Source of the DNA: a virus
Taxonomy: Duplodnaviria > Caudoviricetes
Reading direction: 5' to 3' (one strand)
Virus record (IMG/VR): IMGVR_UViG_3300031216_000035
Location: 1 to 34,284 of that record
Length of the DNA: 34,284 nt
Shown here: in pieces, positions 16,916 to 32,064 of the stretch
Layout: each line of letters starts with the position of its first letter
Numbering within the stretch: the stretch's first letter is position 1
Made by a program: the position numbers and the translations under genes
Notes under the pieces: model-generated
The model's input: only the letters and a program-made list of their open reading frames with translations
Database searches by the model: none
Told to the model about the DNA's origin: nothing

Positions 16916-16993
16916 TTACAACCCCATTTCTTTTGCCATTACTTCAACCCGTGCAAGTCCACCAACCCATTCGTTGAATAATTTATTGTCCAT
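16916..16993 (-). CDS. Small ORF (25 aa, MDNKLFNEWVGGLARVEVMAKEMGL)
   Basis: TAATG coupling to the upstream gene; fills the gap almost exactly. Not in the ORF track. Confidence 0.5.
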   Translation of the reverse strand: MDNKLFNEWVGGLARVEVMAKEMGL

Positions 16994-17247
16994 TATTTTG
17001 CCACGAATTTCCGGGTGCTATTTCCCTTGTGCATTTTTGTTTGAATCAAATATCCGTTCCGCTTCATCATGGTTGAAAACGTCCTTGATGTTAGTGGTTC
17101 AAATTTCTTTTTTTTACAAATATATAAATAGGATTCATACACTTCCGCAACATCGAACATATCAATTACTGTTTTAAAATCCTTGTCCGCACACAATGCT
17201 TTTATTGATTTCATACCGTCTTCCATTGCACTCCTTTTTTTAATCAT
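16993..17247 (-). CDS. Stand-alone primase-type (D5/P4 C-terminal) winged-helix protein A
   Basis: VYESYLYICKKKKFEPLTSRTFSTMMKRNGY...KMHKG aligns by eye with the primase C-terminus. Alternative start at 17226 after AAGGAG. Confidence 0.75.
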   Translation of the reverse strand: MIKKRSAMEDGMKSIKALCADKDFKTVIDMFDVAEVYESYLYICKKKKFEPLTSRTFSTMMKRNGYLIQTKMHKGNSTRKFVAK

Positions 17248-17522
17248 ATGTCCATTTTATCACAATATAAAAAGAAAACAAAAACTAGTTGTTCAAACTT
17301 TTATGTATTTTCTAGTTATTATTATTACATTAATATATATATAATAATAATAATGTTATAAATAAGAGTTCTAACTTTTACTCTTTTTTTTCTCTTTGTT
17401 TTGACCCCCGTTAAAACACCCACCATAAAAACACATAAATTGCAAATCACCAAAATTCGGTGTGTTTCCAACAAAAAAAATGTTAAAATAAAATTACAAA
17501 TGTAATTGAAAAAAGGGACAAA
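17248..17522. promoter_or_regulatory. AT-rich divergent control region, candidate replication origin
   Basis: Back-to-back extended -10 elements TGATAAAAT (-, 17254-17262) and TGTTAAAAT (+, 17481-17489); 12-bp inverted repeat 17316-17327/17342-17353; AAGAGT/ACTCTT inverted repeat 17364-17385. Confidence 0.6.
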
Positions 17523-17870
17523 ATGAACCAACACGATGAAATAATGAACGAATTGTCAAAAATAAACGATAAAATTGACCGTCTTTTGACCCCAAAAACA
17601 CCCGAAAATGACCAAAAACAAGCCACTTTCATGCGTTTTTTGAAGGCGGTTGAACCCGATGAATATATCAACCAAACCATCACGGACGCATATTTAATGT
17701 ATTGTGCAAGCACACGCACCACGTTCAAAGAATCGGACATTATGTCACGCAATATGTTTGGTCGGTTTATGAAAAAACACGGTTATATTTCCGTGAATAA
17801 AACAATAGACGGTCATTCTGAACGCATATATATTGCACTTGAAACCGAAAACATTGATGGTTCCAATTAG
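17523..17870 (+). CDS. Primase-type winged-helix protein B with N-terminal coiled coil; only credible plus-strand gene
   Basis: AAAGGGA RBS and own promoter. AYLMYC...MSRNMFGRFMKKHGY...KTIDG..RIY matches the same wHTH pattern. Confidence 0.75.
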   Translation: MNQHDEIMNELSKINDKIDRLLTPKTPENDQKQATFMRFLKAVEPDEYINQTITDAYLMYCASTRTTFKESDIMSRNMFGRFMKKHGYISVNKTIDGHSERIYIALETENIDGSN

Positions 17871-18058
17871 ACATCACGGACATATTTCATAAATGTTTCC
17901 CAATTGAATGCGTCAATCGCTTCTTCCGTAAACACACCATCAACAACATCATCACGCACCCCGTGAATACCTGTTTCACCCAAACCACGCACCACAATTG
18001 ATATGTCATGTTGACGTTTTATTTCACTCCGGGACGGGTTTTTCGGAAATTCACCCAT
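17867..18058 (-). CDS. Hypothetical protein (~63 aa)
   Basis: Start moved to ATG 18058, overlapping the upstream gene end; converges on the plus-strand gene with overlapping stops. Confidence 0.55.
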   Translation of the reverse strand: MGEFPKNPSRSEIKRQHDISIVVRGLGETGIHGVRDDVVDGVFTEEAIDAFNWETFMKYVRDV

Positions 18059-18440
18059 TGCGTCCACGCACCAATCCATCACGAATGAACGGTTTTTGCA
18101 TTTCAATGGCACCAATTACCAGTCCACCAAGGTCATATTCAATTGATTTCACCGCCGGGTGATTGCAAGCCTGTTCAATGCTTTGGAATAAGTTGTCCAT
18201 TGTTCCAAGGTAATCACCGGGAACCGCCCGGAACGTCCCCACGGTACGCACAATGGCATGATAACCCATTGCCGGGACAATCGGACAATCCCGGTGCAAT
18301 GCTTCATGCACGTCCCGGTCAAGTGGTGGAATCAACATTGTTTCTTGACGCAACTTCATCGTTTCTTTTCGGGTTGTCCACAATGCTTTTTCAAACAAGA
18401 TGTGGTGCCGGTCAAAACTTGGACGTTGCTTTTTTGCCAT
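18051..18440 (-). CDS. Hypothetical protein with HNH-like His pattern
   Basis: DRHHILF...L.RDVHEALH resembles a divergent beta-beta-alpha-metal motif. Confidence 0.55.
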   Translation of the reverse strand: MAKKQRPSFDRHHILFEKALWTTRKETMKLRQETMLIPPLDRDVHEALHRDCPIVPAMGYHAIVRTVGTFRAVPGDYLGTMDNLFQSIEQACNHPAVKSIEYDLGGLVIGAIEMQKPFIRDGLVRGRNG

Positions 18441-18508
18441 TATATTTTGAAATCAAACCAAATAAAAATGTGCTTGTGAACCCTCGCATTGTCCACAAAC
18501 ACATTCAT
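18440..18508 (-). CDS. Small ORF (22 aa, MNVFVDNARVHKHIFIWFDFKI)
   Basis: GGGGGT RBS-like sequence; TAATG coupling to the gene starting at 18440. Confidence 0.35.
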   Translation of the reverse strand: MNVFVDNARVHKHIFIWFDFKI

Positions 18509-18568
18509 ATTGACCCCCGTTTATATTTTGTTTCCGGTACTCAACCCCCGGCATAAATCTCTATATTT

Positions 18569-18577
18569 ATTTTACCA
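18569..18577 (-). promoter_or_regulatory. Extended -10 promoter
   Basis: TGGTAAAAT upstream of the 18508-17867 genes. Confidence 0.5.
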
Positions 18578-21696: not shown

Positions 21697-21821
21697 CAAT
21701 CGCACTCCATTGTTCCGTCATCGTACTTGCGTCCCCGGCAATTGTAACCCAACATTGATTTCAAACACGTGTTCCACGTTCGATGTGGGTGATTGTACCA
21801 ATCTTTAAATTTATTTATCAT
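21696..21821 (-). CDS. Small Cys/His-containing ORF (41 aa)
   Basis: MINKFKDWYNHPHRTWNTCLKSMLGYNCRGRKYDDGTMECD; GGAGG RBS inside the primase 3' end. Not in the ORF track. Confidence 0.55.
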   Translation of the reverse strand: MINKFKDWYNHPHRTWNTCLKSMLGYNCRGRKYDDGTMECD

Positions 21822-23661
21822 CGTTTTTACCCTCCTTTATTACTGTATTGACCATTTTTCCAACCATCTTTTTCCGCTTTACGTGATACCCCAATGTTTC
21901 CAATCTTCGACTGAATTTCCCGGCACCAATTGGACGCAAATTTGAATCTTCACACCATTTATCGTAAGCGTCATATACTTGTGATAATGGGTTCCCAACT
22001 AATGTTTCACTGTATTCGGTGACATATCCCAAAACGGAATCATTGTTTTTGTGGTACTCCTTGGTTGCTACTTCAATGGTTTTACTAATAGACAATTCCC
22101 ACTTGTTCTTGATGATTCTTCCAATCGCTTCCAATCCAATATTCAACAAATATGATTTGGCTTGTTCGGTTGATAGTAATTCATCAATATCGTGGCGTCT
22201 ATTTTTCACCTTATTTTCAAACGGTACAATCAACAACCGGCGTCCAATACCGTCCGATTTGTCTTTGAATGTTGGTGGTTCATTGGCGGTAAATATCAAC
22301 GTGGCGGTGTTCTTAATGGTCACCGGTTGTGAATATATTGCCCTTGCACCAACAGTGTTTCCGCTTGCCATGGTTTTCAAGTTCTTTGATTTTTCCAAAT
22401 ATATTGCGTCAACATCATCGGCAACGTTTACCACTTTACCAATCAAACTTGCCAAACTTGTGCCGTCATCAAAGTTATTGATGTCCACATGTGATGACAA
22501 TTCCCCGGTGAATTTGGTAATCATTTCAATGAACGTTGATTTTCCATTTGCCCCGGAACCCGTCAAGAAAAATATCTTGTGCGGAAACTTCTGAACCAAT
22601 AGAATGTGACCAATAATTTCTTCCAATACAATTCGCAAATCCTTGCGGTCATTGGCAATGAAATTCAAGAAGTCATCAACCTCTTTATCGTATGCTTCAC
22701 TATCAAACGAAACGTCCAAATAAAACGGTGTAAACCCATCTTCCACGTCAACCACGGTGTCCAAAACAATCGTGCCGTTGCGTAAACGTACACTGAAATT
22801 CGCTTTTGGATTAACCCGTTTTCCGTATGTGTACAACTGATGTACTAATTCCGAATGTTGCGGTTTCTTTAGTGAATTAAACGAATTGACGTTTTGTTGT
22901 AACAAAATGTGGTCACTTGAATAGTTTTTTCCCTCCTTAAAATACAATTGTTGTTGGTATATTTTGATGTCCAATTGCTTCACGATGAAACGTCCGTATG
23001 AAATCATGTCACCCGGTTTTCCGTTATATTGACCCTCTGATTCAATTTCGGCTTTTCCAACGCTTTCAACTGTTGCTTCCAATTCTCTTTTCCCAAACGG
23101 TACCCCGAACACAACATCATTGATGAATTCGGCAACCTCCGTGTAATCTTCACCGGGTAATTGTTCCCGGATTAATCGCAAGTGATAGAACAACGCATTG
23201 TTGCGTCCATCACCATCACCAAGTCCCGAAATGTTTTTTGACTTTGGTAATGGTTGTGCTAACAATGGCAAGTCGGGCAAATCTTTCAGTGTCAATTGTT
23301 TGGCACCCTCCCGAACGTTTCCATCTTTTTTAACAACCGTGTATGATGTCGCACCGGTTTTGAAATCGGCTTGAAATCCCCCAACGGTTATTTTATCCGC
23401 ACCGTTTGTAATCGTCACCCCTTTTGGAACCCTGTAATACAGATGTGTGCCACGGGTAGTTTTGACCGATTGCGTGGGAAAATGTTGCAACAAGTAATCG
23501 ACAATCTTTTGTTCATCAACGTTGTCATTATCGAAATCGACAACAACCGTTTTGCCGTTTAACAGTAACCCGGCGTTTTCATATTGGTCATACGTTAAAA
23601 CGAATGTGTCCAATTTTGTCACCGGTGTTTTGTCACCATGCAATTCGATGTACTTTAGCAT
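21811..23661 (-). CDS. Primase-helicase (AEP Prim-Pol + PriCT + D5/P4-type SF3 helicase + C-terminal winged helix)
   Basis: VVVDFD and TTRGTHLYY (AEP); GRNNALF (PriCT); GSGANGKST (Walker A); LIFTANEPP..KDKSDGIGRRL; terminal VYDAYDKWC...FSRRLETLGY. Confidence 0.93.
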   Translation of the reverse strand: MLKYIELHGDKTPVTKLDTFVLTYDQYENAGLLLNGKTVVVDFDNDNVDEQKIVDYLLQHFPTQSVKTTRGTHLYYRVPKGVTITNGADKITVGGFQADFKTGATSYTVVKKDGNVREGAKQLTLKDLPDLPLLAQPLPKSKNISGLGDGDGRNNALFYHLRLIREQLPGEDYTEVAEFINDVVFGVPFGKRELEATVESVGKAEIESEGQYNGKPGDMISYGRFIVKQLDIKIYQQQLYFKEGKNYSSDHILLQQNVNSFNSLKKPQHSELVHQLYTYGKRVNPKANFSVRLRNGTIVLDTVVDVEDGFTPFYLDVSFDSEAYDKEVDDFLNFIANDRKDLRIVLEEIIGHILLVQKFPHKIFFLTGSGANGKSTFIEMITKFTGELSSHVDINNFDDGTSLASLIGKVVNVADDVDAIYLEKSKNLKTMASGNTVGARAIYSQPVTIKNTATLIFTANEPPTFKDKSDGIGRRLLIVPFENKVKNRRHDIDELLSTEQAKSYLLNIGLEAIGRIIKNKWELSISKTIEVATKEYHKNNDSVLGYVTEYSETLVGNPLSQVYDAYDKWCEDSNLRPIGAGKFSRRLETLGYHVKRKKMVGKMVNTVIKEGKNDDK

Positions 23662-29952: not shown

Positions 29953-30227
29953 CCCCTCATGTGTTCTTTAACTTGTTCCAGTGATTCGGCAACAAATGCC
30001 ATTCCACCGGTTTCGTTAATTCGTTTTATATTCCACTTTTGTAATTCTGTTGGTTGTTCACCGGGTGCTTTGACTTCGATTCCAATGAACCGTCCCATGT
30101 GACAAACCAATATGTCCGGCACTCCGGCTTGTGAAAATTTGCTTCCGTGATATTTCACCACGTATGCACCAAGTTCATCACGTAAATACGACTTGATTTT
30201 ATTTTCAATATTCTTTTCCGTTGCCAT
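29949..30227 (-). CDS. VRR-NUC domain nuclease/resolvase
   Basis: EKNIE, AGVPDIL, GIEVKAPG...Q. Confidence 0.93.
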   Translation of the reverse strand: MATEKNIENKIKSYLRDELGAYVVKYHGSKFSQAGVPDILVCHMGRFIGIEVKAPGEQPTELQKWNIKRINETGGMAFVAESLEQVKEHMRG

Positions 30228-30481
30228 TATTTTTTTGGTTCCGTTGGCAAGTCTTGAAATTCCATTGCTTCTTTTGCAATGTCCCGTTCAACATAGAATA
30301 GATATTCCACACCAAGTTTCGGAAAAAACTTGTCACGTATCATATACATTTCATTGCGTGTGAATTGGGTTATGCCGTTTTTCTTATTCCGCATTGTGCG
30401 GTTCGTCACTCCAAGTTCTTGTGCAATGGAATCAAGTGATACATTTGAACGCTTGAATTCCGCATTTAAATTGTTAAACAT
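30227..30481 (-). CDS. XRE/Cro-like HTH regulator
   Basis: NLNAEFKR...IAQELGV...KKNG.TQFT..E...I...FFP...EYLF; first gene of the early operon. Confidence 0.85.
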   Translation of the reverse strand: MFNNLNAEFKRSNVSLDSIAQELGVTNRTMRNKKNGITQFTRNEMYMIRDKFFPKLGVEYLFYVERDIAKEAMEFQDLPTEPKK

Positions 30482-30545
30482 TTAATCCCCTTATTAGATT
30501 TGTAAATTTGTTTCCCTCCAATCACATTACATAATTGATACTACT

Positions 30546-30575
30546 ATCATACCGCTTTTGGATTGAAATATACAA
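30546..30575 (-). promoter_or_regulatory. Sigma70-type early promoter
   Basis: TTGTAT (30575-30570), 18 nt, TATGAT (30551-30546). Confidence 0.55.
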
Positions 30576-30885
30576 GCCGGTTTTTGTAAAAACTTTTCCA
30601 CATGTGGACAACATATTTTCCAACACTTGTGGTGGTCTACTGTGACCACCCCCACACGTATTGGTTGGGGCTATGGGGTGTCCCCCACCGGACACATGTT
30701 TTGCCCTGAAAAAATATTTTACACGGGGCTTGTCCCCTCCCCTACCCCGTGGGTGTGTCGGTCTTTTTTATTTTTGACCCCTGTTAAAAACGAACTAAAG
30801 ACGAACAAAACGTTGTAAGTTTGACATTTTGTCAAAATAGTGGTGGGGAAGTGAACAAAATACGAACGGGGAAGTGGTACCAATT

Positions 30886-30913
30886 AAAAAACCGCCCTTT
30901 CGGACGGTCTTTT
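30886..30913 (-). terminator. Rho-independent terminator after the lysis cassette
   Basis: GACCGTCC-GAAA-GGGCGGTT followed by Ts; also T-flanked on the plus strand, so possibly bidirectional. Confidence 0.85.
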
Positions 30914-30935
30914 GTGTGAACACATTTGTTGTGTA

Positions 30936-31140: not shown

Positions 31141-32064
31141 TTATTCCCCTTTATTACTATTTAAAAACGGTAAATATTTTGTTAAAAATTTACCAAGTTG
31201 ACGCATGAATGTATCGGCGGTTTCTGAATCCGCTTCATTTGCCATGGTCAATTCTTCAATTTTCGTTTGTGCTTCAATTGCCTTTTGGTTGGCAACTGTG
31301 ACGGCTTTATTCAAATCATCAAGTTGCTTTTGTGTTGGACGTTCACCCATTTCGGCAAGTTTCTTTTGAATGGCTTGCAATTCGGTGTTGGACTTCTTCA
31401 ATGCGTTTCCAAGATTAACCGCATTTTTTTCCGCATTCACCAAACGTGGGATTCTATTACGCCAATTCACACCCTCCGATGATTTGAAAAATTGCCAAAT
31501 TTTTGCATTGGTTTCTTGACCAACGTGGTTTTTATTTAAATCCCTATCACTTGCACCCGAATGTGCGTCCAACCGCCCCAATAATCCGTGTGCCAATATT
31601 CGTGCAATACTCAAATCCGTTTTACTCATTGTGCTTGACCCTCCTGTTTTTGGGGTCAACCACCCGGACACTTTTGACCAACCCCGATTTTTAATATATG
31701 CCACTCCACCGGGATTTCCCCCGTTTTGTTCCATCACTGTCATACCACTTGATGTGGCACTTAATACCAACGCCGTGTGTCCCCATGGTTGGTAAAAATC
31801 TTTACTCCAAACTACAATGTCACCTTTTTTCGGTAACTGGTTTGGATTTCCAACTTCATTCTTTACCCGTGTAAAATATTGACCAATTGGATTTGCAAAT
31901 ATTCTATAAAGTCCCTCGGCACCACCGGAACCGGTTGGAAACGATGGACACCCGTGGACTTTACGGGCATATTTGGCAACAACGTCCCAACATTGCGCCC
32001 CATAATAACCATCTTCATCAATGTGTTTTCCACTGTACTGTTCGATGTATTGATCAACTGTCAT
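31141..32064 (-). CDS. Endolysin: CHAP domain + helical domain + coiled coil
   Basis: DGYYGAQCWD (Cys), KKGDIVVW, WGHTA (His), EQN. Confidence 0.9.
   Translation of the reverse strand: MTVDQYIEQYSGKHIDEDGYYGAQCWDVVAKYARKVHGCPSFPTGSGGAEGLYRIFANPIGQYFTRVKNEVGNPNQLPKKGDIVVWSKDFYQPWGHTALVLSATSSGMTVMEQNGGNPGGVAYIKNRGWSKVSGWLTPKTGGSSTMSKTDLSIARILAHGLLGRLDAHSGASDRDLNKNHVGQETNAKIWQFFKSSEGVNWRNRIPRLVNAEKNAVNLGNALKKSNTELQAIQKKLAEMGERPTQKQLDDLNKAVTVANQKAIEAQTKIEELTMANEADSETADTFMRQLGKFLTKYLPFLNSNKGE

What the first reader, a model, noticed from the sequence alone, without database searches (positions are those of the whole stretch)
16993..17870. Divergent pair of stand-alone primase winged-helix paralogs around an origin-like spacer: candidate replication or lifestyle switch
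Seen: three proteins share one pattern. The primase C-terminus reads VYDAYDKWC..LRPIGAGKFSRRLETLGYHVKRKKMVG; ORF 16993-17247(-) reads VYESYLYIC..FEPLTSRTFSTMMKRNGYLIQTKMHKG; ORF 17523-17870(+) reads AYLMYC...IMSRNMFGRFMKKHGYISVNKTIDG. The two small genes are back to back, each with its own extended -10, like cI/cro, and the second is the only credible plus-strand gene and carries a short coiled coil. Known: in phage P4 alpha the C-terminal winged helix is the origin-binding domain and the target of the copy-number regulator Cnr. Inference: free copies of this domain may compete with or load the primase-helicase at the origin between them. That could give copy-number control, a plasmid-like carrier state, or exclusion of related phages, in a genome where I see no integrase or CI. 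I do not know of a described system with this layout.
Basis: partly seen in the sequence, partly recalled or inferred. Interest (0 to 1): 0.82.

Follow-up and report, generated by a model that had tools for sequence, protein, structure and literature searches.

The report
Two free helicase-type DNA-binding genes
An uncultured phage carries two small back-to-back genes that resemble the DNA-binding tail of its replication helicase; they likely act as gene regulators rather than a replication switch, and the pair was not found in related phages.

Summary
The protein observation holds. In a complete 34,114-bp circular phage (host probably Saccharibacteria), ORFs 16993-17247(-) and 17523-17870(+) are D5/RFX-type winged helices. 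A profile built only from relatives' primase tails ranks them next after the primase among 286 window ORFs, and both models fold as winged helices closest to RFX.

Both are only 16% identical to this phage's primase tail, so they are old family members, not fresh duplicates. The spacer is the most AT-rich stretch of the genome but lacks the 7-11-copy inverted iteron array seen at relatives' origins. No second winged helix was found in 8 related records searched whole; the closest relative's contig stops just short of the locus. Neither ORF resembles P4 Cnr.

Best reading (0.45): two DNA-binding regulators at divergent extended -10 promoters, the plus-strand one likely repressing itself at a palindrome over its predicted start site. 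Solo domains of this kind are common (Atlas clusters, phiAsp2 Pas1), and this scan noted single solo copies near origins in eight earlier findings on other genomes. Two copies back to back is the new part. The boldest open reading is that origin recognition moved to the free domains (0.1).

The parts
16993..17247 (-). Solo winged-helix gene 1 (P0001; 84 aa as called, probably 77 aa from ATG 17226); very basic core; one ortholog at 46% identity
17523..17870 (+). Solo winged-helix gene 2 (P0002, 115 aa) with an N-terminal amphipathic helix (candidate dimerisation zipper); no homolog found
17248..17522 (.). Spacer: most AT-rich stretch of the genome (22.5% GC; 26-nt A/T run from 17329); two divergent promoters; no iteron array; unproven origin candidate
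17254..17262 (-). Extended -10 (TGATAAAAT) of gene 1
17481..17489 (+). Extended -10 (TGTTAAAAT) of gene 2
17492..17507 (.). Palindrome AATTACA-AA-TGTAATT over the predicted +1 of gene 2; candidate autorepression operator; half-sites match the GTAAT/ATTAC repeats seen after the primase in L030-L034
17402..17414 (+). 13-bp box TGACCCCYGTTWA, copy 1 of 3 (all intergenic, same strand; 0.15 expected by chance)
18511..18523 (+). 13-bp box, copy 2, about 40-50 nt downstream of the predicted start of the extended -10 promoter at 18577(-)
30775..30787 (+). 13-bp box, copy 3, inside the main early control region
17291..17380 (+). One 13-nt direct repeat pair (starts 17291 and 17368) flanking the A/T core; not significant (12 of 150 shuffles)
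21811..23661 (-). AEP primase-SF3 helicase (TIGR01613, PF09250, PF19263) with C-terminal Pox_D5 winged helix at residues 539-612; wing Arg replaced by Asn; no origin-like gap behind it
30482..30935 (.). Main intergenic region with an inverted TCCCC/GGGGA array conserved in L001; rival origin candidate or operator field of the HTH gene 30227-30481

Best explanation
The two genes encode predicted free-standing D5/RFX-type winged-helix proteins, distant relatives of the primase tail rather than recent copies, that likely act as DNA-binding transcription regulators from two back-to-back promoters. SHOWN: the ORFs, profile homology, predicted fold, the divergence, promoter motifs, palindrome and 13-bp box. 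INFERRED: P0002 would dimerise through its N-terminal helix and sit on the palindrome over its own start site, limiting its own synthesis. P0001 (or P0002) would bind the 13-bp box in the spacer, ahead of the neighbouring early operon and in the main early control region, and so would time early expression before the terminase genes downstream. Any effect on replication would be indirect.
For: Fold and family. Not recent copies: 16% identity to the own primase tail against 42-50% between that tail and six of seven relatives' tails (23% for L015); P0001 and P0002 share only 20%; the tree puts both outside the clade of 11 clade primases (82/80 support). P0001 is a real gene, since an ortholog with its own start keeps 46% identity. 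Solo domains occur with no primase origin next door: phiAsp2 Pas1, 100 aa, annotated as an RFX1-like DNA-binding protein and the top viral fold hit for both models; a 170-aa chromosomal ORF near a uvrB-like gene in G471; Atlas clusters of 87-133 aa with 52-131 members. The palindrome is the only match to the pattern in the genome and lies between the -10 and the ribosome site of P0002; 6 of 2000 spacer shuffles contain that pattern. The 13-bp box occurs 3 times, always intergenic; 0 of 100 shuffles reach 3. Both ORFs keep a basic core and the wing Arg.
Against: No binding or expression data. The palindrome pattern was set after the palindrome was seen; 0.82 matches are expected genome-wide, and some 7-bp palindrome turns up in 932 of 2000 spacer shuffles. 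The 13-bp box has no fixed distance to promoters, was also defined after inspection, and is only partly present in L001 (2 mismatches, reversed orientation). The tree does not reject either ORF grouping with the own primase (p-AU 0.079 and 0.093). The spacer is AT-richer than promoters require and holds the longest A/T run, as do the origins of 6 of 8 relatives with an iteron array. One relative, L015, has a winged-helix-bearing ORF directly behind its origin.
Confidence: 0.45

Rival explanations
1. One reading: the spacer is the origin and the free domains compete with the primase-helicase tail for it, or pair with that tail as Cnr does, setting copy number or a carrier state.
For: Lowest GC and longest A/T run of the genome. 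No origin-like gap behind the primase here or in L001, unlike the gut relatives. L001's 28 kb holds no A/T core, and the part missing from it covers the spacer's position. D5-family tails are the origin-binding domains (PMC4889955, passages). L015 has primase, origin, then a winged-helix ORF.
Against: No 5-mer with two or more copies in both orientations in the spacer, against 8-11 copies in 4 of 4 relative origins counted. Helix 3 and wing sequences differ among the three domains. No similarity to Cnr. No second winged helix in 8 related records searched whole, 3 of them at least 90% complete. A rival repeat array lies at 30680-30880.
Confidence: 0.2
2. Accessory cargo: two solo winged-helix genes were picked up separately in the variable region between primase and terminase, each with its own promoter. 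They act on host or foreign-phage DNA, and their adjacency has no joint function.
For: The primase-to-terminase interval has different small genes in each relative. The two proteins share only 20% identity and are not sisters in the best tree. P0002 has no homolog among 5.8 billion proteins (word-limited search) and P0001 has one among 1.84 billion representatives.
Against: Two members of a family otherwise present once per genome in 7 of 8 records lie 275 nt apart, which chance recruitment explains poorly. GC and codon use are like the rest of the genome. The 13-bp box links the spacer to two other control regions. One clade for P0001, P0007 and P0002 is not rejected (p-AU 0.32).
Confidence: 0.2
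3. Handover: the primase tail has lost origin specificity, and the two free domains are the origin-recognition proteins that mark and open the A/T-rich spacer and recruit the hexamer.
For: The wing Arg is present in 13 of 14 other primase tails with an in-frame wing but is Asn in this phage's primase; both free domains and P0007 keep it. The window primase tail has a long branch (0.72) among its close relatives. The iteron array is missing.
Against: It rests on one residue. One other tail (P0014) also lacks the Arg. L001, the closest relative, keeps it. The free domains would also need repeated sites, and the spacer has few.
Confidence: 0.1

Closest known systems
C-terminal winged helix of D5/P4-alpha/SaPI PriRep SF3 primase-helicases (PF03288 Pox_D5; PDB 1ka8)
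   Same: Same domain family by profile and predicted fold; conserved Y-x3-C, F and G positions.
   Different: Free-standing, with no ATPase; below the Pfam cut-off (P0001 17.2 against 21.4 bits, P0002 no hit); two copies; no SaPI-type iteron array beside them (layout from PMC9371898 passages; test).
RFX DNA-binding domain (PDB 1dp7, 8zjr; PF02257)
   Same: Best structural match for both models (Z 7.0 at rmsd 3.1 over 73 residues; Z 7.8 at rmsd 2.2 over 72); weak Pfam hit for P0001 (E 0.0018); a 14-bp palindrome of X-box-like geometry at the P0002 promoter (X-box letters recalled; 14-bp length from PMC3245922 passages).
   Different: Z under 8 can reflect a common fold; 12-18% identity; the palindrome departs from the recalled X-box at four positions; phage rather than eukaryote.
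Pas1 of Actinoplanes phage phiAsp2 (YP_024787.1)
   Same: 100-aa solo protein annotated as a putative RFX1-like DNA-binding protein; top viral fold hit for both models (E 1.2e-3 and 2.2e-3).
   Different: Single copy, co-oriented with head genes, no divergent partner; no functional data in the record.
Phage P4 Cnr (ORF106, DUF5375) acting on alpha
   Same: A small protein controlling copy number of a D5-type replicon (PMC8628076 passages). The title of Yeo et al. 2002 (PMID 11929537; title only) refers to regulation by homo- and heterodimerisation of winged-helix proteins; that it models Cnr as a winged helix is my recall.
   Different: Cnr does not match the winged-helix profile or either ORF. 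It is encoded directly upstream of alpha, whereas these genes lie 4 kb downstream of the primase.
Lambdoid cI/cro divergent switch (recalled)
   Same: Two small DNA-binding genes back to back with divergent promoters.
   Different: Winged helices rather than HTH_3; no S24 peptidase domain; no multiple shared operators found in the spacer; no integrase detected.

Membership tests
Pox_D5/RFX-type winged helix (PF03288 family) | Profile homology to primase C-terminal winged helices | tested here: met
   (E 4e-6 and 0.0045; 0 of 2000 shuffles each)
Pox_D5/RFX-type winged helix (PF03288 family) | Score above the Pfam gathering cut-off | tested here: not met
   P0001 17.2 bits against 21.4; P0002 no hit; primase 30.5
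Pox_D5/RFX-type winged helix (PF03288 family) | Three helices plus beta-hairpin wing | tested here: met
   predicted models only:
Pox_D5/RFX-type winged helix (PF03288 family) | Sequence-specific DNA binding | not testable with these tools
   basic core and wing Arg kept; no assay
SaPI/P4-type origin of a self-loading SF3 helicase | Central A/T-rich core | tested here: met
SaPI/P4-type origin of a self-loading SF3 helicase | 6-12 iterons, at least two on each side in opposite orientation | tested here: not met
   none in the spacer; 8-11 in 4 of 4 relative origins; degenerate iterons would be missed
SaPI/P4-type origin of a self-loading SF3 helicase | Directly downstream of the helicase gene (SaPI rule; P4's own ori is remote) | tested here: not met
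   spacer is 4.3 kb downstream of the primase
P4 Cnr (DUF5375) | Sequence homology to Cnr | tested here: not met
   no DUF5375 hit
P4 Cnr (DUF5375) | Binds the helicase's origin-binding domain | not tested
   no complex prediction was obtained
cI/cro-type lysis-lysogeny switch | Divergent regulator genes with divergent promoters | tested here: met
cI/cro-type lysis-lysogeny switch | Several shared operators between the promoters | tested here: inconclusive
   one palindrome, one 13-bp box and one non-significant direct repeat
cI/cro-type lysis-lysogeny switch | Integrase or partition genes for a latent state | tested here: not met
   no hit among 30 proteins in Pfam/PHROG and 16 in NCBIfam; head and tail genes were not scanned
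Conserved two-gene system | Pair kept in related phages | tested here: inconclusive
   0 of 8 records searched whole, but the closest relative's record lacks the interval

The most novel reading that the evidence does not exclude
Origin recognition has been split off from a self-loading primase-helicase. The enzyme's own winged helix has lost its wing arginine and its iteron array, and two free winged-helix proteins encoded back to back around the A/T-rich origin act as a two-part initiator or switch, one licensing and one braking replication in a phage of Saccharibacteria.
Probability: 0.1. Interest if true: 0.75.

Novelty: new variant of a known kind. Interest (0 to 1): 0.36.

Why it matters
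Free D5/RFX-type winged helices are widespread in phages (Atlas clusters; eight earlier scan notes), yet my searches found no functional study of one. This genome offers two of them with concrete candidate sites (a 16-bp palindrome, a 13-bp box in three control regions, a conserved GGGGA/TCCCC array), so binding can be tested with small proteins and short DNAs. If they are transcription factors, they would be a prokaryotic parallel to RFX arising from a helicase tail. If they control the origin, they would show a modular route from self-loading helicases to separate initiators. As it stands, the layout rests on one genome.

Tried and rejected
(1) Relatives of P0001 and P0002 in IMG/VR: none. 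JGI metagenomes returned only the window's own contig, L005. (2) tblastn of both ORFs against 50,697 GenBank phages: only weak hits (E 0.3-9); those for P0002 and the best for P0001 fall in primase genes, others in Streptomyces head genes. (3) The profile search with A6 gave 11 hits: P0004 plus 10 others; the 7 of those I read look like primase C-terminal pieces. (4) Prophage search: 2 of 401 genomes in the class and 3 of 401 in the phylum of G006 matched, one of them a solo domain; none of these genomes was at least 90% complete. Primase scan of genome contigs: none. (5) The sigma-70 scan found 7 sites against 8.7 expected, so it is uninformative. (6) GC skew is monotonic at 1-kb scale and gives no origin signal. 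(7) Rfam: no match. The fold of 30630-30790 is not significant (z -1.4). (8) Sequencing runs: no RNA holder listed. Contigs of 4 runs showed no variants, joints or inversion; X2 bridges 17065-18462 in one identical piece; X1 may be the source. (9) The scan of IMG/VR with the conserved control-region pattern found only G001. (10) The generic two-orientation test is not significant for the main control region (418 of 500 and 201 of 500); only the specific GGGGA/TCCCC count is (0 of 500 here, chosen after inspection; 1 of 500 in L001). (11) A P0002 homodimer prediction was never queued because the queue was full, so there is no verdict. (12) Rejected: remnant of an old primase 3' end, because both genes point away from the spacer and have their own start signals; recent duplication of the own primase tail (16% identity); Cnr homology. 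(13) L035:6211-6507 scored E 0.0042 on A6 and was not followed up.

Full report
GENOME. The window is a complete circular phage of 34,114 bp (170-nt terminal overlap; one contig). Nearly all genes lie on the minus strand: an early module (HTH, VRR-NUC-type nuclease, SF2 helicase, RecE, Sak4, SSB, DNA polymerase, AEP primase-SF3 helicase), about 20 small ORFs, then terminase, head, tail and CHAP lysin (head and tail genes read from the translations and from matches to relatives). Runs holding it are labelled salt lake metagenome. The host is probably Saccharibacteria. This rests on one neighbouring gene (18051-18440) having a chromosomal homolog in a Saccharibacteria MAG (34% over 70 aa, E 3e-11); the other of the 2 hits was a short match in an Acidobacteria MAG.

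OBSERVATION. The ORFs and quoted motifs are as described. Pairwise BLAST to the primase fails; P0001 against P0002 gives E 4e-5. An HMM from 7 relatives' primase tails picks both ORFs from 286 window ORFs (E 4e-6 and 0.0045; next 0.41), and 0 of 2000 shuffles reach either score. PHROG primase profiles hit both on C-terminal columns, and the Atlas's own models match Pox_D5 domains (TM up to 0.78 and 0.66). My AF2 models, made from 5-row alignments that included primase tails, are winged helices. RFX5 ranks first for both (Z 7.0 and 7.8) and the P4 origin-binding domain lower (Z 5.6 and 5.7); Foldseek gave no PDB hit at E 0.001 or better for P0001. Each gene has a TGnTAAAAT; this motif occurs 8 times in the genome, 4 of them intergenic. 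P0001 probably starts at Met8. One ortholog, P0007 (46%, 76 aa, on a 621-nt contig), shows it is a maintained gene.

NOT RECENT COPIES. Over 73 core columns each ORF is 16% identical to the own primase tail and 9-24% to other tails, while the own tail is 42-50% identical to six of seven relatives' tails; P0001 and P0002 share 20%. A tree of 18 rows separates the 11 clade primases from the solo proteins, P4 alpha and Patience gp109 (82/80, no starred branch). Grouping either ORF with the own primase is not rejected (p-AU 0.079 and 0.093). Helix 3 and wing residues, which make most DNA contacts in RFX (PMC2777425, passages), differ among all three.

SOLO DOMAINS ARE COMMON. Atlas clusters of 87-133 aa with Pox_D5 on 18-79% of members; phiAsp2 Pas1, annotated as RFX1-like; an N-terminal winged helix in a 242-aa ORF right after the origin in L015; a 170-aa chromosomal ORF in G471. 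The scan's notes list eight similar cases on other genomes (unchecked, leads only) and none for a divergent pair.

CONSERVATION OF THE PAIR. Twenty loci with related primases were fetched; several are near-duplicates (L007/L008, L009/L016, L010/L011, L033/L034). A profile scan of 1323 ORFs in these plus L003 found, besides primases, only the L015 ORF (itself in the alignment) and a weak L035 hit. Whole-record searches of 8 records found no second winged helix; 3 were at least 90% complete, and L015, L032 and L034 were not held. These records are mostly more distant phages. The only close relative, G001 (primase 70%), ends 110 nt after the homolog of 18051-18440, behind a terminator-like hairpin, so the locus is missing. 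Conservation is therefore unsupported but not excluded.

IS THE SPACER THE ORIGIN? SaPI-type origins have 6-12 iterons in opposite orientation around an A/T core, right behind the helicase gene (PMC9371898, passages; bioRxiv 10.64898/2026.10.17.759575, part 1 of 5 read). Relatives show this plainly: 8-11 copies in 4 of 4 origins counted, and 0 of 500 shuffles for the two tested. The spacer has the A/T core (14% GC; longest A/T run, as in 6 of 8 relatives' origins) but no such array; its one 13-nt direct repeat is reached by 12 of 150 shuffles. The main intergenic region 30482-30935 has two TCCCC followed by three GGGGA in opposite orientation, the densest in the genome (5 in 250 nt against 0.31) and conserved in L001 (5 against 0.17; 1 of 500 shuffles). 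It could be the origin or the operator field of the HTH gene. For the spacer: G001's 28 kb has no A/T core, and its missing part covers the spacer's position. My odds (inference): spacer 0.4, main region 0.25, elsewhere 0.35.

CANDIDATE SITES. AATTACA-AA-TGTAATT (17492-17507) starts 3 nt after the -10 of P0002 and covers its predicted +1. Its half-sites equal the repeats behind the primase in L030-L034, and its geometry recalls the RFX X-box (letters recalled; 14-bp length from PMC3245922, passages). It is the sole genome match to my pattern (0.82 expected) and occurs in 6 of 2000 spacer shuffles, but the pattern was set afterwards and any 7-bp palindrome occurs in 932 of 2000. TGACCCCYGTTWA occurs at 17402, 18511 and 30775, all intergenic (0.15 expected; also defined after inspection).

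MECHANISM. Most likely (0.45): two regulators, P0002 a zipper-assisted dimer repressing itself at the palindrome, and one of the two acting at the three boxes to time early expression. All binding steps are inferred. Rivals: origin competitor or Cnr-like partner (0.2), unrelated cargo (0.2), handover of origin recognition (0.1). The last rests on the primase's wing Arg, present in 13 of 14 other tails with an in-frame wing and in both free domains but Asn here. Cnr itself shows no similarity. No complex prediction was obtained.

LITERATURE. Searches (listings and abstract openings only, apart from the passages named) showed no paper on a solo or paired D5-type winged helix in a phage. The library lacks most subscription papers, including Yeo et al. 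2002, of which I saw only the title. PMC4889955 and PMC8628076 were read as passages. No supplements were read; domain tables in supplements (for example of PMC4889955) could list such solo genes.

VERDICT. Real domains in an unusual two-copy divergent layout, in one genome, with the origin and switch claims unsupported so far. New variant of a known kind; interest 0.36.

Noticed in passing
L029:5749, L030:7705, L031:11137, L032:8956, L033:11788, L034:11788 (primase stop codons): In 6 of 6 loci of this subgroup the primase frame stops at the start of the wing (TTT-TGA in 5, ATT-TAA in 1), and the wing sequence continues in the +1 frame for about 20 codons. Candidate programmed +1 frameshift giving wingless and winged primase from one gene.
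   Followed up: partly
window 30482-30935 and L001:2390-2900: Conserved non-coding region: terminator hairpin, two CTTCCCC direct repeats, then inverted GGGGA copies and a TATGAT promoter-like site; origin or operator candidate. Only G001 shares the pattern in IMG/VR.
   Followed up: partly
window 17402, 18511, 30775: 13-bp box TGACCCCYGTTWA three times, all intergenic and on one strand; looser copies at about 18540-18549 and inside P0002 near 17586.
   Followed up: partly
window 21814-21860 (primase wing): The conserved wing Arg of D5-type tails is Asn in this phage's primase, while both free domains keep it.
   Followed up: partly
window 18051-18440(-): 129-aa protein with an RHH motif and further His residues; no Pfam, PHROG or NCBIfam hit; homologs in L001 (43%) and in a Saccharibacteria chromosome (L024). 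Possible host-linked family.
   Followed up: partly
L015:12266-12994: 242-aa ORF right behind the origin, with an N-terminal D5-type winged helix followed by an unrelated domain that I did not scan.
   Followed up: no
L042:1318-1830 (G471): Chromosomal 170-aa ORF with a D5-type winged helix near a uvrB-like gene, with no primase in the 3-kb locus.
   Followed up: no
L012:1712-3417 and L013:5279-6984: The DNA polymerase is in three consecutive ORFs at the same places in two contigs; real split, frameshifts or shared assembly error not resolved.
   Followed up: no
L006, L008, L009, L012, L015, L035 origins: Iteron sequence changes between relatives (GTGTAAC, GCTGTAAC, CTACAC, AGGGATA, TGTAACA) along with wing residues; a natural set for a recognition code.
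   Followed up: no
window 31141-32064(-): CHAP endolysin with a long C-terminal coiled-coil-like region and no cell-wall-binding domain detected.
   Followed up: no
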